64,000 bases of DNA, from the IMG/VR virus record IMGVR_UViG_3300045988_132703. One strand, given 5' to 3'. Shown piece by piece: positions 1 to 63,791 of the stretch. Within the stretch, counting starts at the first letter, position 1, and the number at the start of each line of letters is the position of its first letter. The notes beneath the pieces are model-generated. The model did no database searches. It was not told the DNA's origin and worked only from the letters and a program-made list of their open reading frames with translations. The DNA is from a virus. Both the position numbers and the translations under genes were made by a program.

Positions 1-3000
1 TTACTTGAAGAATCAGACTCTTATGTTTTTAAGAATAACCCCAACTATTCTCCAACTCTTTATCCTGACCCAAATGACGAAAGCCAAAATATAGAAGGAT
101 ATATTCCAGATAGATGGACAAGAAATGTTTTAAAAATAGGACAAAATTCTTTTCCAATTAACGATTATGAGACTCATACGGAGCAATATTATAATACTCA
201 AAAACCAGATACTTATTTTGTAGGAACAAAAGCAATAGGTAACGGTAATTCAGAAGTTTATTATACACCTGTCAAAAATTTAAGTTACTATACTTATAAT
301 TATTCTTATGATGCGAGTAATAAGACTTATCAATGTATTGCCTCAAGTCACGCATCTGCTTCTACTCTTGTTAGAAGTAATATTTCTGGCATTGTTGAAA
401 ATGCAATAGTAAAAGATTCTACTGGCGCGATTGTATCTATTTCAGACAAAGTTACCGGACGAGATTTATTTAATGCAACAAATAATAATAAATCTATTTC
501 CTATTCTCTAGGCAGCACATCTATAGTTACTGAACAAGTTACAAATAATGGAGTATAGGATATTGTAAATGCCACTTATGACATTGTTTGGGGTTCAACA
601 GGAGAAAATAAAAAGAATAGTAATTTATATAATTTTACTGTAAAGCAAGAAATAACTTCCTATGATTCCAACGGCGCGCCAATCGTTACAGAAAACATTC
701 TTACTGGTACTCGTTCTTTACTCGGAATGAGCAATTTACTTTATATTGACGCAAAAACGGGTAGTTATCGTAATGGTTCTTCTTATCTCACAGAAGAAGA
801 AATTGCGGCAATTTAGGGCAAAGCATTAGCAAGTACAACTATTGATTTACTTAACAGTTCAACTTATTCTACTTTAAGTGAAGAAGATATTGATTTTAAT
901 AAAGATAACGAAACTACAATTTATACTGTAGAATTAGAAGATGAAAAAATTCAATATAATAAAACTACTTCTACTAATGAAATACTTACTCGTGAAAAAG
1001 CGAAAAAGAAAGGAATTATTGATAAAAATGCAGCTGATATTTTAATTATTTTAAGTTCAACAGATTCTTCTGTTGATTCATCAAATACTTTTTTTACCTA
1101 TGATGAAATTTCTAATATCAAAGATTCAGATTACGGATTATATACTTTGGGACGAGGATTGTCTGATGATAAATTAAGTTTAATTAGTCCTAAAGATTCA
1201 ATTAATCAAATTGGTGAATTAACTGGTAATTAGGTTCTTTATTTTACTGTCTTAAATAATTATTATGATAGTAATTATTACTATTTTACTAATTAGAAAT
1301 AGCCAGATATAAATTTTTAGATTAATGATGTCCCATATTACTCTTTTTTAGCTTATTCTGAATAGATTGCTGCGGGTAATAAACCTACCTCTTCTGAACA
1401 CGGATTATTAAATCATTTTACTTTTTAGAAGTCAAAAACTCAGATTTTACCTTTGTCAAATTCGTCTGTTGGTTCTGAAGACAATCCGCTAGTAACCTTG
1501 CAGAGATTTTTCCCTATTGTTTCTTCTCTTGCGGGAATGCCTTATAATTTTAAATATTACAAATTTAAAATTCAAGGTGGAACAATCAATGAAAAAGGTA
1601 CGGTTATTTATAATAGTGCTCCTCTTTATGAGTCGGGAAAAATCTTCTCTCGTAGTATTTTAATTGATTATAATAATTATGTCACCGATTATGATAGATA
1701 TAGAATAGAATTAATGTTAGCTACCTCTGAAAATGGTTTCTATTATTATTATACTTATTTATATCCTACAATTGATATGTTCCAAGACGATGAAAAAGAC
1801 GACCATTTTGCTTCTGTTTCTTACGATGAAGAAAAAGGAGCGGCAAAAATTTCTTGGACTAAAGATAACGCTTATCCTCCAGCATTAAAAGGAGTAGAAA
1901 TTACTGAATATGGTACTTATATCACCAATGGTAAAAAATTCCCATTAAAAGCATATAAGATTTCAAAAGATGGGTATATAACTTACTATCATAAAGGTAG
2001 TGAAATTTTAAATATTAATCCACTTCATGATTTTCAAATTAGTTTTACTATTGATAAGGTTTTAAAAGGACTAGACAAAATAACTATCGATCCTCTTATA
2101 GCTTTTAATAACACTCAAAATGCAACTGTCATTAGTCTTTCAGTAGAAGATAATATAATTGAATTAATGGAAGATAATGTTACAATCAAATCTTCTAAAA
2201 ATACAATTATTGAAACTGTTCAATCTTTTATTGATTGGGATGATGATGATACACACAAAAATCAAATTTTCCAATATCGTCTACCAGAAGCTACAAATAA
2301 AACAGAAGATGTTTTATTACCAACCAATGGTGTTCTCGCGCCAACAGAACAAAACTTATCTAAGTACTGTTTCCACTTTTATTTATTCCCCTGGTCTACA
2401 AAAGGCTCAAATGAAGCAAAAGCTTCTTATAAAATTACTCGTTTTTATAATGTAGACAGTTGTGCGACAAATGAACTAATCATGGAATCTGAAGATGAAT
2501 GGCGTTTAGGTTTCTATGGCGAAGGCGCAGGTAATAATGCGGATTTAAGCAATGGCAGTAATAATTTACCATCTGGCCCAACCAAAACTAATTTTGATAC
2601 TTCAAAGTACATTTCTGTTTCTTATCTCTTAAGCGGCGGACGTCCCACTTCCCAAATGTTAAATGGTTTAAGTAAAATTAATCTCTATGGCGAAGTTCTT
2701 TATTATGGAATTTTAGATATTAACCGCCGAGGCATAATTGCAAGTGAAGATAATTTTATTTTAAATTTTAATGATAGTAATGTTGGATTTTCTTCTTTAT
2801 CGCGCGAAGTATACGGTTATAGAATTTTCCGCAATGTTTATGAAAATGACAATGTAAATAGTAGAGATATAGCTCTTGATTTTATGCGCCAAATGGATAC
2901 TGTTTATGCTTCTATCTGTGGTGCAATTACACTAGATGATTCAAACCATAGTCCTCTTGGTAAATATGAAAATATTGTCGATACCGCAACTTATGTTCAA

Positions 3001-3852
3001 GGCTGGGATGAAAATGGAAATGCTATCGGATATATTCGTGGAGCAGATTTAAGAGCATTAGTAAATGATAGTTTCACCGATTTAAGACAGGCGATGGATG
3101 AATATTTTGCAGGAAAAGATTTAAGTTTTAATTTTAATACTGAGCCTTTTGATGAAATTTATAGCTTACTTGACGGCATTCAAACTCCTAACATGATTGC
3201 TAATGATATGATTGCGGACATTAATATTTTTAATTATACAATATCGGAAGAAGCTGGACAATATTATATCTATGATTATAACATTCCAAGTAATGGCTAT
3301 TTTAGATATTAGATTGTTCCTTTATTAAGAGATAAAACTTATAATGTTTTAATCGCCAAAACTAACAATAATGGTGAAACCATTATTTATATAGATGATG
3401 AACAATGGCATATGACTGACATAAAGAAACGTGCTGACGGTAGTTATGCTCCCGGCGATACTTGGAATTTCCTTTTAGGAGTCCAGAGTGCGCAATATAC
3501 TCAAAACTTTACAAAAACTCTTCAAACTGGTTTTGCCCCATATCCTAAAGTCATGACCAGTATGGCTAATTACAAGACAACTCAATTTACTGGTTATTTA
3601 GGTAAATTTAGTTTTAGAAATGGTGGCTCTAACGTATATGAAGATACCATCGATCGTATTGAAAAATGGAATGAATTTGCATATGCACGCAATCAAATTT
3701 TAGTCAAAGATCCAAAAGGTCACGTTTTCATTGCCGCAATTTCTGCAACCTCTGACATTAGCGATGCAGCAATTCCAGAAATGCCAACTCAAGTTACCTG
3801 CACCTTAACTCAAGTTGGAGATATTGATTCGTTTAAGGTATATTCTCTGTGA
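1..3852 (+). CDS. Large virion protein (tail fibre / host-recognition type), 5'-partial, read with TAG=Gln
   Basis: Frame 1 is open from nt 1 to TGA at 3850 if TAG is sense. There are 9 in-frame TAG (556, 814, 1231, 1294, 1300, 1318, 1363, 1426, 3310). It joins track ORFs 1453..3312 and 3412..3852. Function is inferred only from size and position upstream of a baseplate-like gene. Confidence 0.6.
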
Positions 3853-3861
3853 GGTGTTCAA

Positions 3862-5085
3862 ATGGAATATTTTAACTACACAGGGAAGGAGTATAGAGTA
3901 GCGGTTCAATCTGCTACTTTATATCCCGTTATAAAGGTTGAACTACTTGATTAGTTTGAAAATGCTTACGCCGAAATTTCAGAAGAAATTACAGATAATA
4001 GTGGCTCAATTCAGTCAACTTTATAGCAAGGAGTTCGTAATACAGTTTCTTTTTCTATTTTTGATCCAGCGGGAAAATTTATTCCAGATGCAAATAATAA
4101 TTTGTTTTGGGTTAGAAAAAAATTTAAATTATATGTCGGACTTGCGACTGAACAAAAAGCAATTTAGCTTAATGGTCAAACCACTGGAATTTCTGGAGAT
4201 ATATTTTGGTTTTCTAAAGGCGTTTACATCATTACTGATATAAGCGCGCAAAAAGATAGTTCTGGCAATCAGACAATTTCTTTTACTGGCGTTGACAAAT
4301 ATGGAGCTTTTACTAACGATACTGGTTATGGCGAAATGATTGGAACTTTTTCTTTTGATATAGGAATGTCAATCTCTTATGTCATTAAAAATGTTCTTAA
4401 ACAAGATATTGGTAATGGTCAAATGCTTGATCCTCTTGAACCAATTATTGATCCAGACCTTCAAGAATATAAACTTCAACTTGCTTTTAGTAAAGGTCCC
4501 GGCTCTTATATTGGAGACCTCTTAAATGATTTAGCTACTACTCTTCATGCTGATATTTATTATGACATGGATGGACATTTGAATGTCAAAAAGTCATTAA
4601 ATTTTGATGAATATAAAAATGTCCAAAATCAATGGGATTTTACAGAAGGAAGTGCAGAGTATATCTCTGCGCAAGTAAATTATTAGTTAAAAAATATTGC
4701 TAATTATATTTATGTAATTGGTGATAATCCTCTTGGGGGACAAATTCCTGTCGCAATAGCTGAAAACAATGACGCTCGCTCACCATTAAGTATCGCAAAA
4801 ATAGGACGTAAATCTCGTTATATCGAGAAAAGTACTATTTATTCTCAATAGGAAGCTGAAGATTATGCACAATATATTTTAAAAACCGCTTGTCTTTTAG
4901 GTAATCAAATTTCTTTTACTTGTACTTTAATTCCTAGTCTTGAACTTGATAATACTTTTTCTTTAACAGATTCTTACTATCAATATGATAGACAAGAATT
5001 TATTATTACTGCAATTACTTATCCTATTGGCGTTGGTACAATGTCTATCAGCGGCAGTAGCATAAAAGAATTACCGGAGAATTGA
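3862..5085 (+). CDS. Baseplate/tail hub-like structural protein (XkdQ/gpD-like, tentative)
   Basis: GAGGTG RBS at 3851-56, ATG at 3862, TGA at 5083. 5 in-frame TAG. Includes track ORF 4336..4686. Function is assigned from context and weak remembered similarity. Confidence 0.5.
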
Positions 5086-11054: not shown

Positions 11055-12468
11055 TAGTCTGTCCTCTCTGTTCTTAAAGTTAAATGTCCTGTTGAATAAT
11101 CAATATCTGAAATCAACGTAATTGGTTTATAGGGTGAAGTTTTATATGCTTTAGGAATTGCACTATCTCCACGACGAATACACTGAATAATAAGTTTATT
11201 TCCTCTTGTAAACCATGATTTTTCAGTAACCGTTTTTTTACCAGTTACTTCGTCTTTAATAAAAGACTGTTTATCATATTTTACAAATTGAGGTTTATAA
11301 ATTTTAACTTTTACAACTCCATACTGAGTTAATAGAGTTACAATGTTTTTCAGTTTATTTTTTTCAATTACTGTTCCTGCAATATTATGCAATTTATAAA
11401 TTGGAATTTCTTTTCCCTCTTTTGAAGTAAATATCGTTTCTGGAACTGGATCTTCTGGAAGATTAAAGAAATTATCAATTTCCCTTTCTTCAAAATCTAC
11501 TCCATCAAGTTCATGCGCACCATCATAATAACCAACGCTGTCCATTTCCCATTTAGGAATGAAACCAGAACAATATTTATTCCAAATCTCGTCAATGATT
11601 GCTTTATTTAAACTCTCTAAAACTTTAGGCTTTTTCAACCACGGACGAATTTTATCCATGTAAGCCTTATATATTTTTTCCATACGAGTTTGTTCAATCA
11701 TTGCTCCACTCTCTCCAAACTTAACTAAGTCTGGATTAAAATGTGCATTGAAAAATTCAAGAGAATAATCGTCAAGCAAATAATAAAGACCAGATTTACA
11801 ATTCTTTTTTAAGAATTTATTAAAATTATAAACTGCTGCAACATCTTGGTATTTATCTGGAATAATACCATACTTAATCAAAGTTGGCATATTAGCGAGA
11901 GTTAATTTATTTTTCGTTTCTGCAATACTTTCAATATAATTACGAAGAAGACTTTCGCGCGGGATAGAAGAAATTTTATCAAATGCTCCACATTTAATTA
12001 AATTAATAACTTGAAGTTTTGTACTTTTAACTTTCTTCAAGAAATCTTCAAAAGAATTATATGGCCGATTATCAATAATTTCATTTGCATAATCTGCACT
12101 AACTCTTGTGATACCTTTTAATCCATAAATAATTTTATGGTGCGCAACATCTGGAACAAAAGTATAATTTGAAGCATTAATGTCTGGAAGTTCAACATCG
12201 ACACCAAAATTCTTCATCTTGCCAATGGCAGAGCTAATTTTACCATATTGAACAGTTTTTGAAGATTTCTTTTTAGTATCTTCTTCATCTTCTAATTCAT
12301 CTTCAATATCATTGCCTAAAGTATAATCTTCATCTTTTGGATTATCTTCAAGACCACCACTATCAACAATTAAACAAGCCGTATCCCAATAAATTGGGTC
12401 ATAAAAATATGCCAAATTTAATTCTTGAATTGCTACTGTTGAATAAGCTATGGTATGAATAATACTAA
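11054..12468 (-). CDS. dnaE: DNA polymerase III alpha (DnaE-type), exon 4
   Basis: The junction restores GYS|FSIIHTIAYS (consensus GYGFNKSHSAAY). The exon starts after an intron-terminal G. Confidence 0.8.
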
Positions 12469-12778
12469 CTTGCCAAACATAATTTCTTATGCCATTTAAA
12501 ATGTTTTGGTCTGGACTATACCATCATCTTTAAGAAAAGATGTCCTTATTATAGTCTCTGAACGTCTATCTCAATTTAATATATTTTCTATAAAAAATAT
12601 ACTATTGGATATTTCGCTGCGTTTGATTATCCAATCTTAAACGATTTTACCTTACCGTTCCCATTACTGAACGCCGCAAATTAATTACTTAATTTGTTTG
12701 GTTGTTTAAGCTCTAAGGAGTTCCCCGCAATTTAAAGGATTTTCGATATACATCACTGTATAAAGTCGCTTAATTTTA
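12469..12778 (-). mobile_element. Group I intron (family A), ORF-less, in dnaE
   Basis: The 5' exon ends in U and the intron ends in G. Core motifs are TTAAATTGCGGGGA (P4-like), GCGTTCAGTAATGGG and ATAGTC. Stops occur in all frames. Confidence 0.7.
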
Positions 12779-13427
12779 ACGAATAACCCATCTGCTTTTC
12801 GGCTTGAGACCAAATCCAATCAATAATGTCTTTAGAAGTTCCTAATTCTTTTCCCCGTTGATACAAATTTTCTTTTAAAGATGCAATTTCTTTAAATTTC
12901 TTTTTAGCAACAGTTTTACGGACTTTATTTGCTTCATCAACATTATAATTTGTAAATGGTAACATAACCGCGCGCATAAGAGATTCTTGGCTGTCCAATA
13001 CACCACCAAATTCCTTCATAAACTCATAAAGTTTATCTTTTTCTTCAGTAGTAGCATTAAGATTATAAATATCTCTTTTTAATTTTTCTGGATGCTCTTG
13101 GTATTCAACAAATTCCTCAACAGGAGTTTTTTGTCCTTTTTCTGGCATTAATCGCATCAAACTATTTGACTGCGCAAGAGTAAGCAAATTTTTTGGTTTA
13201 ATCTGTTTCGCTGTTTGCAATCCAACAGGAGTATCAAATTGGAACAAACTAATAATTTTATTGTCGCCAACAAGCTTCCACATTTCCGGATTATCGTAGT
13301 CAATAACATCTGGATTTAGATATTTCATATAAGTAGCTTTTAAAGAACCTTGCCACTCCATTAAACCATCATTAAGAAGTAATTCCATTGTGGTACGGAT
13401 TCTATCCAAACCATCAATAGTTAAGAA
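12779..13427 (-). CDS. dnaE: DnaE-type polymerase, exon 3
   Basis: The junction gives IKYD|FLTIDGLDRI (consensus KFDFLGL). Confidence 0.75.
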
Positions 13428-13852
13428 CCTTTATACCCTCGGTTTCCCGATATTTATTAGGGGAGTAGACTATCTCTTCATCCTATTGCTAGGAGTCTCG
13501 CACTTCGATTTAAAGGGATTTCACCTACCAGAGTTTCACTGGCCCTACTTCTATTGACATTTATAAAGCTGTCTAAAGAATAGTCGTTACACCTTCTAGA
13601 TTAATCTAGCTTGGCACGGTATTACCATATTATTTAACTTAGGCTTTTACCGTTAGCCGCAAAGCGACACCCTTAAATAAGGTTCACGAGATTATAATAT
13701 ATTATTACTAATATATCAGACATTTGATATATTTAGAAATTTTAGCATATCTTGAGTTTTTCTTTCTAGAGTAATTTCTGAGTTAGTTGAAAGTAAATAC
13801 TAAACAATATTTTTAGTTCTAATATACTAATCATCCATAAATATATACCTTT
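13428..13852 (-). mobile_element. Group I intron (family C), ORF-less, in dnaE
   Basis: Its ends are near-identical to intron 14339..15125: GAAGAGATAGTCTACTCCCCTAATAAATATCGGGAAACCGAGGGTA at the 3' side and GGCTAACGGT...GGTAATACCGTGCC at the 5' side. Confidence 0.7.
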
Positions 13853-14338
13853 ATCGTACTTAATATGACCCGCGTACTCTTCATCATGTAATTCCCATTG
13901 GCTACATTTTACTCCTTTAGGACTCTTCATCGTCGCGCCAAGTTCTGTAAATTTATCGTTTGTTAAGATAATACCAGAAGCATGAACTCCACGGCGACTA
14001 ATCAATCCCTCAATGTTTTTTGCAACATTCCAAATATCTTCATGTTTGCCCATTTCTGCAATAAATTGCGGAATAGGCTGATACCCCTTTTCTTCGTCTC
14101 CGTAATAACATTGCTGTAAACTTCTAACAAAACCGCGGTCAATAGGAATTAAAGAACTAAGAAAACTTCCTAATTCTGGTTCGTATCCTAAACCACGTGC
14201 AGCAGTTTGCAATGCTGCTTTTGAAGTTTCAGTGCCAAAAGTTGCGACACTCGTTAATTCTCCGCCAATGGACTCAAAGTAACGACGAACTGCTTCAATA
14301 AATCTTTCACGCTTGGATGCCTGAGAATCAATATCGAC
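13853..14338 (-). CDS. dnaE: DnaE-type polymerase, exon 2
   Basis: Begins VDIDSQASKRERF. The junction RAELAD|VDIDS matches the palm PDxDxD motif. Confidence 0.8.
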
Positions 14339-15125
14339 CTTTAATTACCCTCGGTTTCCCGATATTTATTAGGGGAATAGACTATCTCTTCATCCTATTT
14401 CTAGGAGTCCTGCGCTTCGAACGGTGATTAAATCTGCTCTACTACTTAGTCGTTACACCACATCTATCCTATAATCTTTACAATGTCCATATTTTCTTAA
14501 AGAAGATATGCTACAGTCAAAATATTCTTTAGCATATTCTGCGGCAGCTTTCTTATTGTCGAAGATTTTTATAATAGAGTTAGTTGAAATTTGAACTAAT
14601 GCACATTTTATCTAATTGCGTGCTGGTCCCATTGTAGAATAAGAATCATATAAATTATATTTTCTATCACACCATTCAAGATTTTCTAATTTATTATTGC
14701 TTCTATTCTTATCTTTATGATTTACCTCTGGTAAATTATCTGGATTAGGAATAAAAGCTTCTGCAACAAGTCTGTGAACAGCGTAATGTTTTGCTATATT
14801 ATTTTCACATAAAGAAATATATTGATAACCAGCCATATTTGTCCAAGCAGACATTTCTTTAGGCTTTTTATATTTATATGAAATAACTCTTCCATCATCG
14901 GTTATCCCATAATCTTCGTGATTTTTAATTCTTTTTTCCATTAATTTTCACCTCTAATCAAGAAGTAAAAATTTATCAACTTTCCTCTAAGAAAAATAGA
15001 TACGGCACGGTATTATCTTTTCGGATTTCCACCGTTAGCCATTTTAAATGACACGCGATAATCAATCGCTTCACAGGATTTTCTATTATGATATTACTAT
15101 CATAAGCGGACTATGATATAAGTTA
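14339..15125 (-). mobile_element. Group I intron (family C) carrying an HNH homing endonuclease, in dnaE
   Basis: U before the 5' splice site and G at the 3' end. It shares its core with 13428..13852, and the ORF sits in a peripheral loop. Confidence 0.75.
14453..14941 (-). CDS. HNH homing endonuclease (intron-encoded)
   Basis: VHRLVAEAFIPNP...VNHKDKNRSNNKLENLEW HNH motif. Continues through the TAG at 14612 to the TAA at 14453. Confidence 0.8.
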
Positions 15126-16512
15126 ATCCGCGAGTTCTGCACGTCCTCTTGAACAAAATCTCCAATAAGGAAGTGCAGTTGGACTTTTCAATGGATCGCG
15201 CTGAATAATGTCCATCAAATATGCGCTTAACATTGAACCTACTGAACCACGCCAAGGACCGACTAAAGAGTCACCATCTGTCCAAGCAATATCAATAACT
15301 TTACGAACGGTGATAAAATAAGCACTTAAACGCTCTTGAATTTTTTCGGATACAATCCACATTTCTTGAAGTTCTTCTTCAAGTCTATCAAGATGAATTT
15401 TGTCTAAACAATCTAATTCAAGCCCTTTTTGAATAATACTATAAAGAAAGAATTTATCTTCTTCATATTCACTATTCAAATACTTATTTAAATATTCTCG
15501 TTCGCCAATGATTTTTTGTGGCTCACAGTGGATTAAATGCCAATCAAGAGGAATACGAGGAACAATTTGCTTATATGCCAAATCATATTCTTCAATCATT
15601 GAACAAACTTTATTACTATTTTCAAAAATTTGAGTAATAAAATCGTCATCAAAATAATTAAGTTTCTCTCGAATTTCCTCTGCACTCATCATATAAGTGT
15701 AAGCGTAGAAATCATCAGTCTCTCTATCTCCATCGCCAGAATTAAGAAAACTCTTATGAATTTCTCTATCCTCTTGACGTAAATAGTGGCTATCAGTCGT
15801 AACTGTGATATTAAAATGATTCTTTTTTGCAAACTGCGCAGCTAAAGTATTAAAAGTAACTTGTTCTTTACTCAGCCCAGGCTGAATTTCAATAAAGAAA
15901 TTTTCTTTACCAAAAATTTGTTCACACCAATGGCAAAAATTTAATGCTTTTTCATACTGTTGATTTAAAATCAAATAATCGAAAAAACTACCTAAGCAAG
16001 CTGTTTGTGCAACCACATGTCCAGAATTATTTCCGATAATTTCTTCAATGTCTGAATAATAAGTTGGAACACGTTCCATAAATTGATAAAAACTTCTATT
16101 CCAAGCTCTTGAAGATAATTCTCGAAGTTGTTTATTTCCTATTTTATCTTTTGCTAATAAAATAAAGTGCCAAAATTTATCTTCACCTTTAATAAAGTTT
16201 TTTGCACTTAAATTATCACGGCAAAGATAAATCTCATTTCCTAATACAAGTTTAAAATTTTTAACTTGATTAGCCCATTTATCATTTGGTTCTGTCTCTA
16301 AAATCTTTTTCGCCTTTGATTTTAAAGATTTCATGTATTTTAAAGCTTTGATATAACCGGAAACACTCTCGTGGTCAGTGATTGCTACACCCGTTAAACC
16401 CAATTCCAAAGCATAATCAATTAATTTATCTTCTTTGATAATACAATCGAGCATACGAATGTTAGACCCACTAAGAATAATGGGTATGATTATGTCCACT
16501 AAAATATCCCAT
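15126..16512 (-). CDS. dnaE: DnaE-type polymerase, exon 1 (PHP domain), with a recoding site near codon 13
   Basis: The RBS AGGTGA serves ATG 16512 (frame A: MGYFSGHNHTHYS-TAG). The rest of the PHP domain (NIRMLDCII...AITDHES) is in the +1 frame (track ORF 15123..16499). Confidence 0.75.
16464..16476 (-). other. Candidate translational bypass / +1 frameshift site (UCU UAG UGG G UCU)
   Basis: Take-off UCU (16476-74) is followed by UAG, and a matching landing UCU (16466-64) lies 10 nt downstream. The hop gives HNHTHYS|NIRMLD. Confidence 0.45.
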
Positions 16513-16584
16513 TATTTCTTAGAATCACCTCTCTTTCTAATGCTTTCAATAAAGTAATTTGATATTATTTCCATTTCTATAAAT

Positions 16585-16593
16585 ATTATATCA
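16585..16593 (-). promoter_or_regulatory. Extended -10 (TGATATAAT) upstream of dnaE
   Basis: The minus strand reads TGTGATATAATATTTATAGAAAT, sharing the conserved box downstream of the -10 seen at other promoters here. The -35 is weak. Confidence 0.35.
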
Positions 16594-16609
16594 CATTTTT
16601 GCGCAGAAA

Positions 16610-18127
16610 TCAAAACATTGCCCTACCATTTTCAAGCTCATAATCTTCTATGATAACTTGAGGAGTATAATTACCCATAAATTGATTTAAATTCATTTTA
16701 CCATAAACGGTAATTGCACCAATAGAATAAGACTGAACTTTTTGTGCAAAATCGGCATCTTTAAATTTAACAAAAGCAATCCCATCTTTTTCAATTTTAA
16801 CGGAATCTTTATTTTTGCCCATGATAAACACATCATTTTGGGTAAAAAGAATTTTATTGACAATAACTTTAGGTTCTTCAACACCTTTGCCATAAACATT
16901 TTTTATGGCGTCCAAATCAACACAAATAGATTCAATATCGCCGCAGAAATTTCCATCAAATTCAAAATCTACAAGATAGCTGTTTTCACCCAAATTGATA
17001 TTAGCCAATTTCTTATTACAGTATTTAATAAATTTATTCAAATTCTTTTCTGCAATCCCAATACCTGCCGCGCTTTCATGTCCTTCAGCATATTCGACCA
17101 ATCCACTCTTAGTACAAAAATCCTTAAAATTTGCAAGAGGACTATTTGAATTAACCCTAAAAGAACCTTTAAATACATTATCATCTGCTAAGCGAATTAC
17201 AATAGCAGGACGGTTATACATTTGACAAAGCTTCATCGCAATTAAGCCAGTTAAATTAGGATTGACATATCTTGATTCGTCGTCATCAAGGGCAACTAAA
17301 AGAACTTTGTTTTCATCTAAACATTCTTTTTCAATTTTCCCACAAAGAAATTGGACACTTTGGTCAATCATTTTATTTTGATGATTACGTGCATTAGTGG
17401 CGATTCGTGCGGCTTTATCTGCAATGACTTCTGTATCGCCAGGCTTTGCCCCACGTTTGGTAGATGGTTCAGTATCATTCGGACCGCTAATAAATGCTTT
17501 AAATAAAGTTTCTTTTTCTTCCATTGTCCCTACACGAATTACCGCATTAACGAGTGGCGCGATGAAAAAAGAAACATCTGTAGGAGTAATATCATCAATA
17601 TTTCCTATCGAGAAAGATTGTTTTAAAGCAAATCGAGTCAAACCATAATTCTTTAAATTTGTTAAACCTTGACTGATAATATATCTTGTCTCAAGATTTC
17701 TTAAATCCATCATGTCACCAACGATACCCATTGCTGCGAGATCAAGGAAATTGTCAGCGTAATTATAACCATATTTTATATCAAAATATTTAATAAATTT
17801 ATAGACAACTCCAGCACCAGATAAATCTCGGTTAGGATATTTCCCTAATTGATTATTAATAACAATCGCATTTTCGCTTTCTGCTTCACACAAGTGATGG
17901 TCAAGAATAAGAATATCAAAACCTTGTTCTTTTAATATTTTATGTTCTTCATATTGATTAGAACCTGCATCTGGAATAACAATTAACTTCGCTTCATGAG
18001 GAACTTTATCTAACTCAACACCATGCTATTTCCCAGAGTGCATAGACCAAAGAATTTGAATATTCGGTTTAATCAATTTTAAATAATTATAAAGAATAGC
18101 AGAAGATGTAACTCCATCCTGATCAGA
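16610..18127 (-). CDS. recJ: RecJ-like DHH phosphoesterase / ssDNA exonuclease, exon 2
   Basis: SDQDGVTSSAIL, ILILDHH (DHH) and GHESAAG motifs. 1 in-frame TAG at 18028-26. Confidence 0.7.
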
Positions 18128-18449
18128 CATTACTACCCCGACTTTTGTCGTATTTATTCAGCAATTGCTGAAATTTATTATACTTTCTATTTAAATAAAA
18201 AGTATAAATTTTAAGGGATTAGACTATACAATCTCTTTCGAGTCGGTATTATAGTCGTTGAACGTTTCTCTTATTTATTACTAGACTTAGAGACTTCGCT
18301 GCGTTTGATTACCCAATCTTCAATGTTTTTACCTTACCGTTCCCGTTACTGAACGCCAATATAAAATTTCTTATATATCTTGGTAATTGAAGTTCTAAGG
18401 GACTCCCCGCAATTTAACCGATTTAACGTGGACTCAGACTTTTAGGTTA
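18128..18449 (-). mobile_element. Group I intron (family A), ORF-less, in the recJ-like gene
   Basis: Splits the DxDxDG motif (VVD|SDQDG). U/G boundary rule holds. TTAAATTGCGGGGAGTCCCTTAG core. Confidence 0.7.
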
Positions 18450-32933: not shown

Positions 32934-34169
32934 CTAGACTATATCTTTAAGTTTACAAAGAGGTTAATAAAAACTAATATTTATCATATTTTCTCTGAAG
33001 AAAACAAGTGCTGTTAGAATAGAGATAATTTAAAATTGAAAGAATCTAAATTCTCCCACGCCAATGACAGTTATAAGCATTGCCTTTTTCAATTTTATTA
33101 TGAAAATTTTTACCAATAGCTTTATCTATAGCTAATTGGAAATCTTGAACAAAACTTTCATAATATGCGCAAAAGCCGATTGAAGCGTCATTTTGATTTA
33201 CAATTGAACAAATTCCATCTCCATCATATAATCCACGAAGATAATGATGGAATAGTTTTTCTGGAATTTTATTTGATAAGTGAGTTAAAGAATAAGTTTT
33301 ATTAGGAATTATACCATATTGGGCTAAATCCTACGCCATTTTCGCAGAAGCCCATTCGATAGTAAAACATTCTTTATTGGCTCTTTTATCTTCTTGAATT
33401 TTGCAATCTAAACAAAGAATCTTTTTAATCCATTCTAAAGTTGCTCGATCATCAACTTGTAAACTAATTCCAATTGTAAAACTATTACGACTTTTTAAAT
33501 TTTTAACATAACCATCAGTAGTTAATAATCCCAAAAGATAAGCTTTTTCTTCAGTGTCAATTGTTTCAAAAAAATCTTCAATAATATTTTTATTAACTTT
33601 TTTCCAAGTGACTTTGTCTATTTGATTTTCTTTTAATACTCGATTAATTAAAGTAATATCACAATTATATTTTCTAGCAATTTCGTTAATTCCAGAATGG
33701 CAACGATACATATTTATTATATCTTGCTATTGTTCACTAGTAAAAAATTTTTTTCTAAGCCCTCTTTTAATTTCAATTCCCATAGATTTTAATGCTTTAG
33801 AAATTGTATCTGGTTTTTTATGATATTCTTTTGATAATTGCTAAATAGAAAATCCTTTTTGATATTTATCAATTAATTCTTCTAAAAGAACGTTATTTAT
33901 CATATAAATCACCTCAAAAAAGAAGTAATTTATCTAATAAGTCACTCTAAACTTACTCTGCATTTCGCTTTCGCTACTCCCGGCCAAGGGATAGTCGTTG
34001 AACCTTTTCCTCTAAAGGAACTTGGCTGCTGATTGCCCAATCTAGTTTATTTTCAAACATTCACAATTATTGTTTCCAATTTTGTTGTAGTTAAACTAGC
34101 TCTAAGGGGTTTCCAGCAATTAACAGAGTTTTTCAATACATATCGCTATGTAAGGGAGCTATTTAATTA
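32934..34169 (-). mobile_element. Group I intron (family D) with a LAGLIDADG endonuclease
   Basis: GGT|TAAATAGCTCCCTTA at the 5' end, as in 34293..35364. TTGCTGGAAACCCCTTAG block and GATATAGTCTAG 3' end. Confidence 0.65.
32953..33903 (-). CDS. LAGLIDADG homing endonuclease (double-motif) with N-terminal HTH
   Basis: LLGLLTTDGY and LRGLYDGDG motifs. 5 in-frame TAG join the track ORF 33331..33711 to flanking coding sequence. Confidence 0.75.
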
Positions 34170-40215: not shown

Positions 40216-41640
40216 ATGACCCCAAAATATAAAGGTATTGATGTTTCAAAACATCAAGGAATTATTAATTGGGATTAGCTTGCAACTGATCCTAATGTGC
40301 AGTTTGTAATTATTCGCGCGGGCTATGGTAGTTATTATCCAGCTCAAGTTGATGCGCAATTTGAAACAAACTATAAACAAGCAAAAGCGCATAACATTCC
40401 AGTTGGTGTCTATTGGTATTCTTATGCTTCAACAGTAAGCGAAGTTCATCAAGAAATGGCCGCACTATTAAAAACAATAGAAGGAAAACAATTTGAATAT
40501 CCTATTTATTTTGATCAAGAATATGAAAAAGACATTGTCGCTTTAACAAAAGCTCAAAGAACAGAACTTGTCAAAACAGCACTTAATATCCTTGAAGGAA
40601 AAGGATATTATGCTGCACTTTATTGCAGCGCGGACTGGTTAAATAATCGTTTAAACTATAATCAATTAACTTCTTATGATATGTGGATCGCATAGTATGG
40701 GACAAATTGTTCCGCCAAACTTCCATACGGAATGTGGCAATATTCATCAAAAGGAAAAGTTAATGGTATTTCTACTGATGTGGATTTAGATTATTGCTAT
40801 AAAGATTATCCAAACATAATCAAGAAAGCTGGACTGAATGGTTATAAAAAAGATAGTTTAGCTACTCCATCAGCTTCAACAACCCCGATTGTTTCTTCTA
40901 CTGATTATGTGCTAGATTGGCCGCTACAAGGGCAGCATGTAATTACAGCTGGTTGGTGTTATTCTACTGGTTCACTACATTAGGCTATTGATTTAAGAGT
41001 AACTTTAAAATAGCCAATTTATGCTGCCGGAGCGGGAATAGTTAATTTTGTTTATACTTGGAACGGTAAAATAACTAATGGTGATACGAATAGTTATGGC
41101 AATTGCATAAAAATTCTTCATGATAAAAAGTATAATGGCAAAAACATTGAGACTCTTTATGCTCATTTAGATAGTTATGTCGTTTCAAAAGGACAAAGAG
41201 TTATGGCAGGATAGTTAATTGGCTATGCCGGTTACACTGGTCATGTTGTTCCTGCTGGGCCAAACGGCAAACATTTGCATTTTGAAGTTCGTTTGTCTGG
41301 CAAGAGAACTAATCCTTTAGTCTGGTTAGATGCTGATTTTACGACAAAAGATTCTTCTGTTTATACTTTTGGTAAGGGAGAGCGTAGCGCGATTCGCTCA
41401 ACTGAATCATCTAAACCTACTGCTCCAACTCAACCATCTATTCCTCAAAAGACTATTACTTTTAAGGATGGTCGTTGGAATGTGCGCAAAGGACCCGGTA
41501 TGGAATATGGCATTGTCGGATAGATTACTAGTCCACAAAATGGGAAATCAACTTGCATTAACTATTCTGAAATTAAAAATCAATGGTATAAAACTGTTTA
41601 TGGCTATGTAGGCCCAGCTGCAATCAAAAGCCATACATGA
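40216..41640 (+). CDS. Endolysin: GH25 muramidase + M23 peptidase + SH3-like domain
   Basis: GGAGGTG RBS. GIDVSKHQG...WIA(TAG)YG is the GH25 part. H(TAG)AIDL...YAHL...G(TAG)LIGYAGYTG...HLHFEV is the M23 part. 6 in-frame TAG (40276, 40693, 40981, 41011, 41212, 41521). Confidence 0.85.
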
Positions 41641-63205: not shown

Positions 63206-63284
63206 GGCTTTAGTAGTGTAATGGTTGTAAGCACGCCAGTCTGTGGAACTGGTAGAGGGAGTTCGAATCTCCTCTTTAGCCCCA
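63206..63284 (+). tRNA. tRNA-His (GTG)
   Basis: Hand-folded cloverleaf. G-1 (63206) sits opposite C73. Anticodon loop is CTGTGGA (GTG at 63243-45). T-loop TTCGAAT, encoded CCA. The acceptor stem has two U:U mismatches. Confidence 0.75.
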
Positions 63285-63359
63285 ATAGAAAGGCTGTTGT
63301 ATGATTACGATTGCAGTTTTCTTCATTCTCCTTTTCGCTTTATGGTATATGTTTTTCTG

Positions 63360-63389
63360 TTGACTTTTTAAAAAATATATGCTATAATA
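63360..63389 (+). promoter_or_regulatory. Consensus promoter for the downstream tRNAs
   Basis: TTGACT, 18-nt spacer, TATAAT. Leader hairpin AATGTAAG-N14-CTTACATT follows. Confidence 0.55.
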
Positions 63390-63427
63390 TTTAATGTAAG
63401 GTTGAGAAATAAATCTTACATTGATAT

Positions 63428-63504
63428 GCCCTCGTGAGCAAATTGGCAAAGCTAAACGGCTCAAACCCGTTGTTTTGTGGGTTCAAATCCCATCGAGGGT
63501 ACCA
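63428..63504 (+). tRNA. tRNA with anticodon CAA (Leu codon UUG) but class I architecture
   Basis: 7-bp acceptor (G1:U72), anticodon loop CTCAAAC (CAA at 63462-64), 5-nt variable loop, T-loop TTCAAAT, A73, encoded CCA. Confidence 0.65.
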
Positions 63505-63720
63505 AGAGGTTCTGACGTGACGCCTCGTTAATGTTGAAAAGTCAGGGTAGTGGTGATTAAGGCTAGAAGTGCTAGAGTTCCAGCTGCTACCTAAAAGAAC
63601 AAGTAGGAATAGCATGCACTTTGGTTTCCTTTGTCAATACAGTTGCGTACGAACTGCGGACAAAAAAGATAACGGCATAGAGTTGTCAATTGCTAGGTTT
63701 GAAGGTTCCTAGCATTATAA
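63505..63720 (+). other. Structured 216-nt spacer between tRNAs (possible ncRNA)
   Basis: Several local hairpins (GGTAG..CTACC, AGGAA..TTCCT, TTGTC..GACAA, CAGTT-GCGTACG-AACTG, CTAGG..CCTAG). No credible ORF. Confidence 0.25.
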
Positions 63721-63791
63721 TGGGGTATCACCTAGTGGCAGGGTAGCGAGCTTTGACCTCGTGTGTAGGTGTTCGATTCACCTTACCCCAA
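63721..63791 (+). tRNA. tRNA-Gln (TTG)
   Basis: U1:A72, G2:C71 and G3:C70 acceptor as in bacterial tRNA-Gln. Anticodon loop CTTTGAC (TTG at 63753-55). T-loop TTCGATT. No encoded CCA. Confidence 0.75.

What the first reader, a model, noticed from the sequence alone, without database searches (positions are those of the whole stretch)
16464..16512. Candidate programmed translational bypass (10-nt hop) or +1 frameshift at UCU-UAG at the start of dnaE
The only RBS-served ATG (16512) opens a 13-codon frame, MGYFSGHNHTHYS, which contains the PHP HxH metal motif and then hits TAG. The remainder of the PHP domain (NIRMLDCII...AITDHES) is in the +1 frame. That frame has no ATG or RBS of its own, and the track ORF starts at GTG 16499. 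The sequence is UAU UCU UAG UGG G UCU AAC. A take-off UCU is followed by a stop, and an identical landing UCU lies 10 nt downstream. A hop yields ...HNHTHYS-NIRMLD..., which matches the compact H-x-H-T-x-Y-S-N-x-R-x-L-D arrangement. This is the same logic as the matched take-off and landing codons plus UAG in T4 gene 60. A simple +1 shift would give ...HYS-SGS-NIRMLD. Because the stop is TAG, the event could sense suppressor or RF1 status.
Basis: partly seen in the sequence, partly recalled or inferred. Interest (0 to 1): 0.8.

Follow-up and report, generated by a model that had tools for sequence, protein, structure and literature searches.

The report
Ribosome-hop cassette in phage dnaE
The phage's replicative polymerase gene starts with a 10-base insert that breaks the reading frame, and comparison with about 50 related phage contigs suggests ribosomes hop over it; this would be a second natural family of the T4 gene 60 type, again linked to homing endonucleases.

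Summary
ATG 16512 opens MGYFSGHNHTHYS, then TAG. The rest of dnaE follows in the +1 frame after TCT-TAGTGGG-TCT.

It is not a sequencing error. The same insert occurs in dozens of independent assemblies across lineages with 59-100% DnaE identity. Sister contigs that lack exactly these bases read HYSNIR in frame.

Related phages carry homologous micro-inserts of 5, 7, 8, 10 and 11 nt after the first His, Asn, Thr or Ser of PHP motif I. Each has a stop codon directly after the last homologous codon. Each ends in a codon synonymous or near-cognate with that codon (TCT>TCT/TCC/TCA, ACT>ACC, ACG>ACT, AAY>AAY/AGC, CAT>CAA). Gap length varies within a cassette family (5/7 nt; 5/7/8 nt), so the frame offset changes. 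A +1 frameshift cannot explain the family; a P-site tRNA hop can.

Leader codons change mostly synonymously in frame 0. Full-length HNH or GIY-YIG homing endonuclease genes often sit directly upstream. The window keeps only the HNH 3' remnant. The cassette ends exactly at the landing codon, as in the T4 MobA/gene 60 element.

The phage also reads TAG as Gln. No experiment exists. Hop confidence is about 0.72.

The parts
16585..16613 (-). Promoter-like site TTGATT-17-TATAAT with an extended -10 TG, upstream of dnaE
   Evidence: The sequence is conserved in relatives. The 5' boundary of the cassette lies just downstream of it.
16515..16565 (-). 3' remnant (about 16 codons, ..SNYFIESIRKRGDSKK) of an HNH homing endonuclease gene. 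Its TAA stop (16514-16512) overlaps the dnaE ATG.
   Evidence: The full-length 214-216 aa ORF sits at the same place in L003, L007, L020, L009 and L070-72. It hits PHROG HNH endonuclease at 4e-16 and Pfam HNH at borderline score.
16524..16533 (-). Shine-Dalgarno sequence GAGAGGTGAT serving ATG 16512
   Evidence: Conserved in all relatives.
16474..16512 (-). 13-codon leader ORF MGYFSGHNHTHYS, which is PHP motif I with the HxH metal ligands. It is the first coding segment of dnaE.
   Evidence: Substitutions among cassettes are mostly synonymous in frame 0, with 9 extra synonymous codon variants against 7 amino-acid variants. The other frames give 3/13 and 1/15.
16474..16476 (-). Take-off codon TCT (Ser13)
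   Evidence: It is the last codon homologous to in-frame relatives and is followed directly by a stop.
16467..16473 (-). Untranslated coding gap TAGTGGG, with TAG at 16473-16471. The next frame-0 stop is TAA 16464-16462.
   Evidence: These bases, together with one of the two TCT codons (10 nt in all), are absent from L005, L006 and L029.
16464..16466 (-). Landing codon TCT (TCC in a sister lineage). tblastn alignment to uninterrupted DnaE starts here.
15126..16463 (-). dnaE exon 1 after resumption (NIRMLDCII...), containing the PHP domain and the start of the Pol III alpha domain
16508..16526 (-). 5' arm of a long-range helix, GAUUCUAAGAAAUAAUGGG, covering the SD tail, the spacer, AUG and GG
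16465..16484 (-). 3' arm of the long-range helix, CCCAUUAUUCUUAGUGGGUC, covering the His-Tyr codons, take-off, UAG, the gap and the start of the landing codon. The same bases can form an alternative local 8-bp hairpin, ACCCAUUA[UUCU]UAGUGGGU (16485-16466).
   Evidence: Local hairpin: -9.8 kcal/mol, z = -3.9. Start-region/take-off duplex: -18.2 kcal/mol, z about -3. 86.5% of cells are paired against 37-53% for slid controls, with no double compensatory changes.
11057..15125 (-). Remainder of dnaE. Coding pieces are 14344-13853, 13424-12807 and 12517-11057. They are separated by three intervening sequences: one at about 15125-14345 holding HNH ORF 14947-14615, and group I introns at 13736-13446 and 12788-12496.
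   Evidence: The pieces are collinear with a 1186-aa uninterrupted homolog.

Best explanation
The 10 nt (one TCT plus TAGTGGG) are the 3' end of a decayed homing-endonuclease cassette that replaced the 5' end of dnaE.

The intact cassette runs from just downstream of the promoter to the landing codon. It holds an HNH endonuclease gene, a new RBS and ATG, its own copy of the first 13 codons, and the gap.

To make DnaE, the ribosome initiates at ATG 16512 and translates MGYFSGHNHTHYS. It then pauses with peptidyl-tRNA(Ser) on UCU in the P site and UAG in the A site. The tRNA unpairs, the mRNA slips 10 nt, and the same tRNA re-pairs with the second UCU. Decoding resumes at AAC. This yields ...HNHTHYS-NIRMLD..., the canonical PHP motif I.

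Shown: the anatomy; conservation across lineages; alleles with and without the insert; matched codon pairs at four different codons; variable gap lengths; frame-0 selection on the leader; the endonuclease linkage; and the clean cassette boundaries.

Inferred: that the ribosome actually hops; that the insert protects the carrier genome from its own endonuclease by destroying the target in the conserved motif I DNA, as proposed for T4 MobA/gene 60; and that the complementarity between the start-codon region and the take-off region helps the hop.
For: (a) The junction recurs in about 50 contigs. This specific insert occurs in lineages with 100, 83, 72, 61 and 59% DnaE identity.

(b) Clean presence/absence pairs exist. 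L028 and L082-87 read TCT TAGCGAA TCT AAC, while L029 reads TCT AAC. L003, which carries the HNH gene and the insert, was compared with the uninterrupted contig L005. Identity is 99.7% upstream of the -10 hexamer and 98.3-98.7% downstream of the landing codon, but only 89% in the leader, and the Ser codon and RBS differ.

(c) Eleven junction types were found at four codons. Ser: TAGTGGG, TAGCGAA and TAGCG gaps, landing on TCT, TCC or TCA. Thr: ACT|TGAA|ACC and ACG|TA|ACT. Asn: TAGGG, TAGGGTG and TAGGGTTG gaps, landing on AAC, AAT or AGC. His: CAT|TAGTG|CAA. In every type a stop follows the last homologous codon. The codon before resumption shares its first base and at least 2 of 3 bases with the take-off codon, and is synonymous in most. 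Wobble-position differences argue for selection on tRNA identity rather than a simple DNA duplication.

(d) Insert lengths of 5, 7, 8, 10 and 11 nt give both +1 and +2 offsets, even within one cassette family.

(e) H10, H12, S16, N17 and D22 are invariant in 32 diverse in-frame homologs. HxH-to-Asn spacing is 4 or 5 in all 103 in-frame sequences.

(f) Leader substitutions are mostly synonymous in frame 0, including Ser TCC/AGC/AGT.

(g) An endonuclease gene lies directly upstream in 13 of 33 interrupted 5' contexts, against 3 of 69 uninterrupted ones. It is HNH with the Ser-type and one Thr-type insert, and GIY-YIG with the Asn-type and the other Thr-type.

(h) dnaE is otherwise complete and present as a single copy in the window.

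(i) The architecture parallels the published MobA/gene 60 element: HNH gene, element-borne homology region, bypass cassette, and an insert that ends at the landing codon (bioRxiv 10.1101/2022.08.31.505936).
Against: There is no protein or reporter evidence. All sequences are metagenomic, and none of the cultured-phage homologs whose match coordinates were inspected is interrupted: searches found 721 and 138 matching records but listed coordinates for only the best 40 and 60.

The gap has no room for the gene 60 signals. The nascent peptide is only 12-18 residues long. No RNA structure is shared by all types, and the local hairpin is broken in the TAGCG variants. High efficiency is therefore not explained.

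Some landing codons are only near-cognate (AGC for Asn, CAA for His).

The phage reads TAG as Gln, so UAG is not necessarily a stop when DnaE is made.

No insert length is a multiple of three, which a frame-independent hop does not predict.

For the 10-nt and 7-nt types taken alone, a +1 shift also restores an open frame.
Confidence: 0.72

Rival explanations
1. Programmed +1 ribosomal frameshift at UCU-UAG (a 'shifty stop'). The ribosome skips the U of UAG and reads AGU GGG UCU AAC, giving ...HYS-SGS-NIR...
For: The 10-nt and 7-nt inserts put the body in the +1 frame, and that frame has no stop inside the gap. A stop in the A site is a classic +1 stimulator. Between the two 10-nt Ser variants, AGT to AGC is synonymous in the +1 frame.
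Against: UCU-decoding tRNA cannot re-pair with CUU, and there is no SD 3 nt upstream as in prfB. Homologous cassettes with 8-, 5- and 11-nt inserts need a different shift. L073 (gap TAGCG) and L028 (gap TAGCGAA) differ by 2 nt in an otherwise homologous cassette. Asn- and His-site inserts would split the invariant HxH. No in-frame homolog has 7 residues between HxH and Asn. GGG to GAA (Gly to Glu) is tolerated in the gap.
Confidence: 0.1
2. There is no recoding. The leader is a separate 13-aa upstream ORF. DnaE starts downstream, by reinitiation at GTG 16499 or at the ATG of R-M-L-D, and works without the HxH of PHP motif I.
For: Gene callers annotate it this way, as MDIIIPIILSGS... or MLDCIIK.... 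Some Pol III alpha PHP domains are catalytically degenerate (general knowledge).
Against: Leader codons stay under frame-0 purifying selection after the cassette spread. The 8-nt lineages L126, L133 and L148 have no start codon in the downstream frame before the invariant S-N-x-R-x-x-D. GTG 16499 has no RBS. The stop always falls exactly after the last homologous codon, and the next homologous residue always follows one matched codon. Reinitiation does not require either feature.
Confidence: 0.08
3. The gene is a pseudogene or is decaying. The insert inactivated dnaE, and replication relies on another polymerase.
For: The window's HNH gene is itself degraded, and the gene is riddled with mobile elements.
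Against: All four coding pieces are intact and collinear with a 1186-aa homolog. The insert persists in abundant lineages down to 59% identity with no further damage. No second copy is present in the window.
Confidence: 0.05
4. Sequencing or assembly indel.
For: None beyond the a priori possibility.
Against: The identical junction occurs in dozens of independent assemblies from different studies and assemblers.
Confidence: 0.01
5. The insert is removed at the RNA level, by an unknown site-specific mRNA cleavage and ligation, or by polymerase skipping of the hairpin.
For: The local hairpin brings the two TCT codons together.
Against: No known bacterial or phage mechanism excises 5-11 nt from mRNA. 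The hairpin is not conserved across variants. There is no homopolymer for transcriptional slippage.
Confidence: 0.03

Closest known systems
Phage T4 gene 60 translational bypass with the MobA/MobE HNH homing-endonuclease element (bioRxiv 10.1101/2022.08.31.505936; review PMC5009743)
   Same: Matched take-off and landing codons, with UAG directly after take-off. An HNH endonuclease gene sits immediately upstream. The element brings its own copy of the displaced coding segment and ends at the landing codon. The host gene is an essential replication gene. The presumed role is self-protection of the carrier allele.
   Different: The gap is 2-8 nt rather than 50 nt (20 nt in one Aeromonas clade). 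The nascent peptide is 12-18 aa rather than 46 aa with a defined tunnel signal. There is no UUCG take-off stem-loop. The take-off codons are Ser, Thr, Asn or His, not Gly GGA. The target is the 5' end of dnaE, so the gene is not split. There is no sequence homology to the gene 60 cassette. GIY-YIG enzymes are also involved. The host phages recode TAG.
Synthetic 'stop-hops' and short +5/+6 hops in E. coli (Weiss et al. 1987, as summarised in PMC5009743 and in the introduction of the 2022 preprint)
   Same: Peptidyl-tRNA re-pairs to a matched codon a few nucleotides downstream, across a slow A-site stop codon. The event is frame-independent.
   Different: Those were engineered or adventitious low-efficiency events. 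The review notes a paucity of naturally used cases. Here the configuration is conserved in natural essential genes.
Mitochondrial 'byps' of Magnusiomyces capitatus (described in PMC5009743)
   Same: Many short mobile inserts in coding sequence are corrected translationally, using matched take-off and landing codons.
   Different: The byps are 27-55 nt long, with an unused codon in the A site. They occur in a mitochondrial system, and no endonuclease gene is attached.
prfB (RF2) +1 programmed frameshift
   Same: A stop codon in the A site acts as the trigger, and an upstream short ORF is fused to the main body.
   Different: prfB needs CUU-U re-pairing and an SD 3 nt upstream. Neither is present here, and the offset is not constant among the homologous cassettes.

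Membership tests
Programmed translational bypassing (gene 60 type) | Take-off codon and landing codon are readable by the same peptidyl-tRNA | tested here: met
   The window has TCT/TCT. Relatives have TCT/TCC, TCT/TCA, ACT/ACC, ACG/ACT and AAY/AAY. The near-cognate pairs are AAY/AGC and CAT/CAA.
Programmed translational bypassing (gene 60 type) | A slow or stop codon lies immediately 3' of the take-off codon | tested here: met
   TAG in the window, and TAG, TGA or TAA in all 11 junction types. Caveat: TAG is a Gln codon in this phage.
Programmed translational bypassing (gene 60 type) | Coding resumption is set by the landing codon, not by the gap length or frame | tested here: met
   Gaps of 5 and 7 nt occur in the Ser cassettes, and gaps of 5, 7 and 8 nt in the Asn cassettes. 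Each predicts the same product.
Programmed translational bypassing (gene 60 type) | Stimulatory mRNA structure (take-off stem-loop or 5' stem-loop) | tested here: inconclusive
   The window has a local 8-bp hairpin with z = -3.9, but it is broken in the TAGCG variants. The start-region/take-off helix is enriched in Ser-type cassettes, with mean duplex energy of -17 against -9 kcal/mol in uninterrupted alleles and 86.5% of cells paired. It shows no compensatory double changes and was not detected in the Asn, Thr or His types; the test window was placed at the Ser site, so those take-off sites were only partly covered.
Programmed translational bypassing (gene 60 type) | Nascent-peptide signal, and one polypeptide made from two ORFs | not testable with these tools
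   This needs proteomics or reporters.
Free-standing homing-endonuclease cassette with self-protecting insert (MobA-like) | An endonuclease gene adjacent to the modified target gene | tested here: met
   Relatives carry a full HNH ORF, and the window keeps only its 3' remnant. The ORF hits PHROG HNH at 4e-16 and the GIY-YIG ORF hits a PHROG homing endonuclease family at 3.5e-25. Pfam GIY-YIG scores 35 bits against a cut-off of 22.6, while Pfam HNH scores 21.3 against 21.4.
Free-standing homing-endonuclease cassette with self-protecting insert (MobA-like) | Discrete element boundaries, and alleles with and without the element in otherwise near-identical genomes | tested here: met
   L003 against L005: 99.7% and 98.5% identity in the flanks, 89% within the element-borne leader, and the element ends at the landing codon.
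Free-standing homing-endonuclease cassette with self-protecting insert (MobA-like) | The endonuclease cleaves the uninterrupted allele and spares the insert-bearing one | not testable with these tools
   This is inferred by analogy only.
+1 programmed frameshift (prfB type) | P-site tRNA can re-pair in the +1 frame; an SD lies about 3 nt upstream; the offset is a constant +1 | tested here: not met
   UCU to CUU does not re-pair, and there is no nearby SD. The 8-, 5- and 11-nt homologous inserts need other offsets.
DNA polymerase III alpha (DnaE) with PHP domain | PHP and Pol III alpha domains present, with motif I HxH...D | tested here: met
   Pfam PHP at 3.5e-24 from residue 7 of the hop product, and DNA_pol3_alpha at 2e-11. 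PDB hits are 2hpi, 5lew and 3f2b.
Genetic code 15 phage (TAG = Gln) | In-frame TAGs at conserved positions of real genes; a suppressor tRNA | tested here: inconclusive
   TAG aligns to an invariant Gln in the RecJ-like gene. Five TAGs lie inside the GH25 and M23 domains of the lysin. No tRNA(CTA) is present in the window or in the related loci examined, and the rest of the genome was not seen.

The most novel reading that the evidence does not exclude
These micro-hop cassettes may be a general self-immunity device of free-standing homing endonucleases, and at the same time a decoding-state sensor. In these TAG=Gln phages the dnaE body avoids TAG, and the take-off codon is followed by UAG. Early in infection (RF1 only, slow A site) ribosomes would hop and make DnaE. 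Once the phage suppressor tRNA accumulates, UAG would be read as Gln and ribosomes would terminate two codons later at UAA, shutting off polymerase synthesis. The helix between the start-codon region and the take-off region would supply the forward pull that the 50-nt gene 60 gap obtains from its stem-loops.
Probability: 0.2. Interest if true: 0.93.

Novelty: new variant of a known kind. Interest (0 to 1): 0.86.

Why it matters
Programmed bypassing has essentially one well-studied natural system, T4 gene 60 and its homologs, plus the yeast mitochondrial byps. The 2016 review (PMC5009743) notes a paucity of naturally used cases. Short stop-hops over a few nucleotides, 9 nt counting the landing codon, were studied only in engineered constructs.

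If these cassettes are hopped, they provide dozens of natural, independently varied minimal hop sites: four take-off codons, three stop codons and gaps of 2-8 nt. That would make the minimal requirements for take-off and landing directly testable.

They would also show that the pairing of a homing endonuclease with a translationally corrected insert has arisen repeatedly, with both HNH and GIY-YIG enzymes.

There is a practical point too. Gene callers truncate or mis-start these dnaE genes, so annotation pipelines need a rule for them.

Tried and rejected
- DNA searches against GenBank phages found no close relative. tblastn against cultured phages found homologs, but every match whose coordinates were listed (the best 40 of 721 records, the best 60 of 138) starts at or before the HxH, so no interrupted isolate was seen.
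- Pattern scans of IMG/VR and JGI metagenomes for other gap lengths after ACCCATTAT or TATTCTTAG returned only the known TAGTGGG type plus chance hits.
- A close-relative scan with P0038 gave nothing useful.
- I tried to extend the window's tRNA array to look for a suppressor tRNA. The search found no match, and there are no tRNAs in 13 related loci.
- RNAalifold on the Ser-type cassettes gave no covariation. It chose the local hairpin, which is broken in the TAGCG variants.
- The long-range helix test showed conserved complementarity but no double compensatory changes.
- SD-like G-rich gaps were considered as a common signal and rejected, because the TAGCG, TGAA and TA gaps lack them.
- Target-site duplication was considered as the source of the repeated codon. 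It was rejected as sufficient, because several pairs differ at the wobble base.
- -1 slippage was considered for the 8-nt type. It was rejected because there is no X XXY YYZ motif.
- My per-locus ORF-gain statistic for recoding was unreliable, because ORFs that run off the locus ends are not counted. I replaced it with alignments.
Full report
OBSERVATION

On the minus strand the sequence reads GAGAGGTGAT (SD, 16533-16524), an 11-nt spacer, then ATG GGA TAT TTT AGT GGA CAT AAT CAT ACC CAT TAT TCT TAG TGG G TCT AAC ATT CGT ATG CTC GAT. The ATG is at 16512, the take-off TCT at 16476-16474, TAG at 16473-16471, the second TCT at 16466-16464 and AAC at 16463-16461.

Frame 0 gives MGYFSGHNHTHYS and then a stop. 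The +1 frame is open from there to 15126 and encodes the rest of a PHP/Pol III alpha protein. The mechanical ORF starts at GTG 16499, which lies 24 nt from the SD. A promoter-like TTGATT-17-TG-TATAAT sits at 16613-16585.

NOT AN ERROR

A protein search returned 2,498 homologs. Among the best 120, many gene calls at 100-62% identity begin MDIIIPIILSGSNIRMLD or MVYTTTPIILSESNLRMLD, which is the +1-frame reading of the same junction. Others begin at the Met of R-M-L-D. Sister proteins begin ...HNHTHYSNIRMLD in frame.

DNA from IMG/VR shows the identical TCT TAGTGGG TCT in 7 contigs of the window's own lineage and in 4 contigs of a lineage with 59% identity. Two of those four have TCC as the second codon. 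Nine metagenome contigs and ENA/Logan contigs at 83, 72 and 61% identity carry it too. Six independent assemblies of a 62%-identity lineage carry TCT TAGCGAA TCT.

ALLELES WITHOUT THE INSERT

L029 is identical to L028 around the site except that the 10 nt are missing. It reads TAT TCT AAC.

L005 and L006 are 97-99% identical to the window's DnaE and read CAT TAT AGT/AGC AAT. L003, which carries the insert, was compared with L005. Identity is 99.7% in the 300 nt upstream of the -10 hexamer and 98.3-98.7% downstream of the second TCT. It is only 89% in the 27 nt of leader, and the Ser codon, RBS and start differ. A discrete segment that ends exactly at the second TCT has therefore been swapped in.

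THE SEGMENT IS A HOMING-ENDONUCLEASE CASSETTE

In L003, L007, L020, L009 and L070-72 the segment contains a 214-216 aa ORF whose stop overlaps the dnaE ATG. The ORF hits PHROG HNH endonuclease at 4e-16. It hits Pfam HNH at 21.3 bits, just under the cut-off of 21.4. The window retains only the last 16 or so codons (16565-16515); the rest has been deleted.

MORE CASSETTE TYPES

An alignment-based scan of IMG/VR, a junction parser, one look-up and one pattern scan revealed further micro-inserts in PHP motif I of more distant dnaE genes, at 40-50% identity.

| Site | Take-off | Gap | Landing | Insert (nt) | Loci |
|---|---|---|---|---|---|
| Ser | TCT | TAGCG | TCT | 8 | L073 |
| Ser | TCT | TAGCG | TCA | 8 | L126, L133, L148 |
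| Thr | ACT | TGAA | ACC | 7 | L081 |
| Thr | ACG | TA | ACT | 5 | L100 |
| Asn (inside HxH) | AAY | TAGGG | AAC or AGC | 8 | L174, L179, L172, L180 |
| Asn (inside HxH) | AAC | TAGGGTG | AAC or AGC | 10 | L181, L176, L178 |
| Asn (inside HxH) | AAC | TAGGGTTG | AAC or AAT | 11 | L173, L182, L175 |
| His | CAT | TAGTG | CAA | 8 | L124, L129 |

In L126, L133 and L148 the landing TCA is also the Ser codon at that position in the uninterrupted relative L138. In L100 the stop TAA overlaps the landing codon.

Three rules hold in every type:
- A stop codon directly follows the last codon that is homologous to in-frame relatives.
- Exactly one extra codon precedes the next homologous codon.
- That extra codon is synonymous or near-cognate with the take-off codon.

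Several pairs differ only at the wobble base. This argues for selection on which tRNA can read both codons, rather than a simple sequence duplication. AGC can pair with the Asn anticodon through a central G-U pair, which is my inference.

GIY-YIG homing endonuclease genes lie directly upstream of the Asn-type inserts and of one Thr-type insert. They score 35 and 23.5 bits against a Pfam cut-off of 22.6, and PHROG 3.5e-25. HNH genes accompany the Ser-type inserts and L081.

Over 102 non-identical 5' contexts, an endonuclease gene is adjacent in 13 of 33 interrupted genes and in 3 of 69 uninterrupted genes. These sequences are related, so this is indicative only.

HOP VERSUS FRAMESHIFT

Insert lengths of 5, 7, 8, 10 and 11 nt put the gene body in the +1 or the +2 frame. 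Gap length varies within single cassette families: TAGCG against TAGCGAA, and TAGGG, TAGGGTG and TAGGGTTG. A fixed +1 shift cannot serve them all. No site has an X XXY YYZ motif or prfB-like features.

Translating the Asn or His inserts after any shift would turn HxH into H-x-x-x-x-H. H10, H12, S16, N17 and D22 are invariant in 32 diverse homologs. The HxH-to-Asn spacing is 4 or 5 in all 103 in-frame sequences inspected. The hop product has a spacing of 4, while a +1 product in the window would have 7.

The leader is translated and under selection. Among ten Ser-type cassettes, the ten codons before the stop show 9 extra synonymous codon variants against 7 amino-acid variants in frame 0. The other frames show 3/13 and 1/15. 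H-N-H, Y and S never change, while the Ser two positions after the second His (TCC, AGC, AGT in L126, L133, L148) switches between codon families.

A P-site tRNA hop from the take-off codon to the landing codon is the one mechanism that gives the canonical protein in all types. For the window's own 10-nt type a +1 shift remains formally possible.

POSSIBLE RNA HELP

In the window, ACCCAUUA[UUCU]UAGUGGGU can form an 8-bp hairpin with the take-off codon in its loop (-9.8 kcal/mol, z = -3.9). The TAGCG variants break this hairpin.

A better conserved feature of the Ser-type cassettes is complementarity between the SD tail, spacer and AUG-GG on one side (cuaagaaAUAAUGGG) and CCCAUUAU-UCU-UAG plus part of the gap on the other. 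Duplex energies run from about -14.5 to -24.5 kcal/mol. The mean is -17 kcal/mol (z = -2.1) for all interrupted genes, against -9 kcal/mol (z = -0.2) for uninterrupted alleles. In the alignment, 86.5% of cells are paired, against 37-53% when one arm is slid.

The 3' arm is invariant, so no compensatory double changes exist. The changes in the 5' arm are mostly wobble-compatible. ATG-GG(N) (Met-Gly) and ACC CAT TAT are specific to the cassette and absent from L005, L006 and L069, the uninterrupted contigs whose Ser codon is AGT/AGC and which show no trace of a cassette.

This resembles the exit-side pairing recently proposed to drive gene 60 bypassing (bioRxiv 10.1101/2024.12.09.627546, listed). 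It is only a hypothesis here. No comparable helix was detected for the Asn, Thr and His types, but the test window was anchored at the Ser site and only partly covers their take-off sites.

GENETIC CODE

The phage reads TAG as a sense codon. The RecJ-like gene just upstream has TAG aligned to an invariant Gln. The lysin at 40216-41637 has five TAGs inside full-length GH25 and M23 Pfam matches. The endonuclease ORFs in L131, L133 and L020 have only TAG as in-frame stops, mostly opposite Gln.

The dnaE bodies of L126, L148, L131 and L138 have no TAG in about 670 codons. The UAG after take-off may therefore be a true stop early in infection and a slowly decoded Gln codon later. If it is read through, frame 0 ends at TAA 16464-16462. 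No suppressor tRNA was seen in the window or in the related loci examined.

THE REST OF THE GENE

dnaE is complete. It has four collinear coding pieces covering residues 17-1181 of a 1186-aa homolog, and it is a single copy in the window. It is interrupted by two group I introns (Rfam E = 1e-8 and 3e-7, below the gathering score) and by a third intervening sequence that holds an HNH ORF.

KNOWN WORK

T4 gene 60 and its MobA HNH element have the same logic and even the same element layout: the endonuclease gene, an element-borne homology region, a bypass cassette, and an end at the landing codon. Short stop-hops are described only from synthetic constructs, and natural use of bypassing is called rare (PMC5009743). 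Searches of the open literature found nothing on dnaE or on micro-hops of this kind. No interrupted N-terminus was seen among the cultured-phage matches listed (best 40 of 721 and best 60 of 138 records).

VERDICT

It is a new variant of a known kind: minimal, natural hop cassettes linked to homing endonucleases in a phage replicative polymerase. The endonuclease-immunity role and any regulatory role of the UAG are inferences.

Noticed in passing
window 40216-41637 (+), 16613-18136 (-), many + strand ORFs in 1-5085 and 40174-63135: The phage appears to use TAG as a Gln codon (code 15-like). TAGs lie inside the GH25 and M23 domains of a lysin and at an invariant Gln of the RecJ-like protein. 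Treating TAG as sense joins many fragmented ORFs. No tRNA(CTA) is present in the window.
   Followed up: partly
window 12496-12788 (-), 13446-13736 (-), about 14345-15125 (-): dnaE is split by three intervening sequences. Two match Rfam group I intron at 42.9 and 38.2 bits, below the gathering score of 50. The third carries an HNH endonuclease ORF (14947-14615). Relatives such as P0001 (620 aa) lack the first of these.
   Followed up: partly
window 18137-18449 (-): The RecJ-like gene upstream of dnaE is also split. Residues 1-66 are at 18647-18450 and residues 64-571 at 18136-16613. The roughly 310-nt intervening sequence is probably another intron.
   Followed up: no
L005 and L006 about 1440-1500; L069 about 2420-2500: The uninterrupted alleles whose Ser codon is AGT/AGC have no ATG, GTG or TTG at a workable distance from their SD. 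The in-frame candidates are ACG or ATT in L005/L006 and ATA in L069. The cassette alleles have a good ATG. This may mean dnaE is normally initiated at a weak non-canonical start.
   Followed up: no
L020 4175-4822; L003 and L007 same region: The full-length HNH gene in the window's own lineage has a single in-frame TAG exactly where the L009 and L070 orthologs have CAA (Gln). This fits TAG=Gln and late expression of the endonuclease.
   Followed up: partly
all junction types: None of the observed insert lengths (5, 7, 8, 10, 11 nt) is a multiple of three, although a hop should be frame-independent. This is unexplained. It might reflect that in-frame TAG-led inserts would simply be read through in TAG=Gln phages.
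   Followed up: no
window 32953-34119 (-): An ORF with LAGLIDADG-like motifs (LLGLLTTDGY, LRGLYDGDG) and about 10 in-frame TAGs. It looks like another homing endonuclease.
   Followed up: no
L090 543-1256 and about 1500: An in-frame dnaE allele (MTYFSGHSHTHYSNIR) has a GIY-YIG gene directly upstream and no micro-insert. It may be a case where protection is achieved in another way.
   Followed up: no
L081 1871-2560; window 16598-16461: The upstream endonuclease ORF is in the same reading frame as the dnaE body in the window lineage, in the L070 lineage and in L081. The two are separated by a single stop codon (TAA, TGA and TAG respectively). This is probably coincidence, but in L081 a TAG=Gln reading would fuse them.
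   Followed up: no
window 63207-63791 (+): A tRNA cluster (His-GTG, Leu-CAA, Gln-TTG) lies at the very end of the window and probably continues beyond it.
   Followed up: partly
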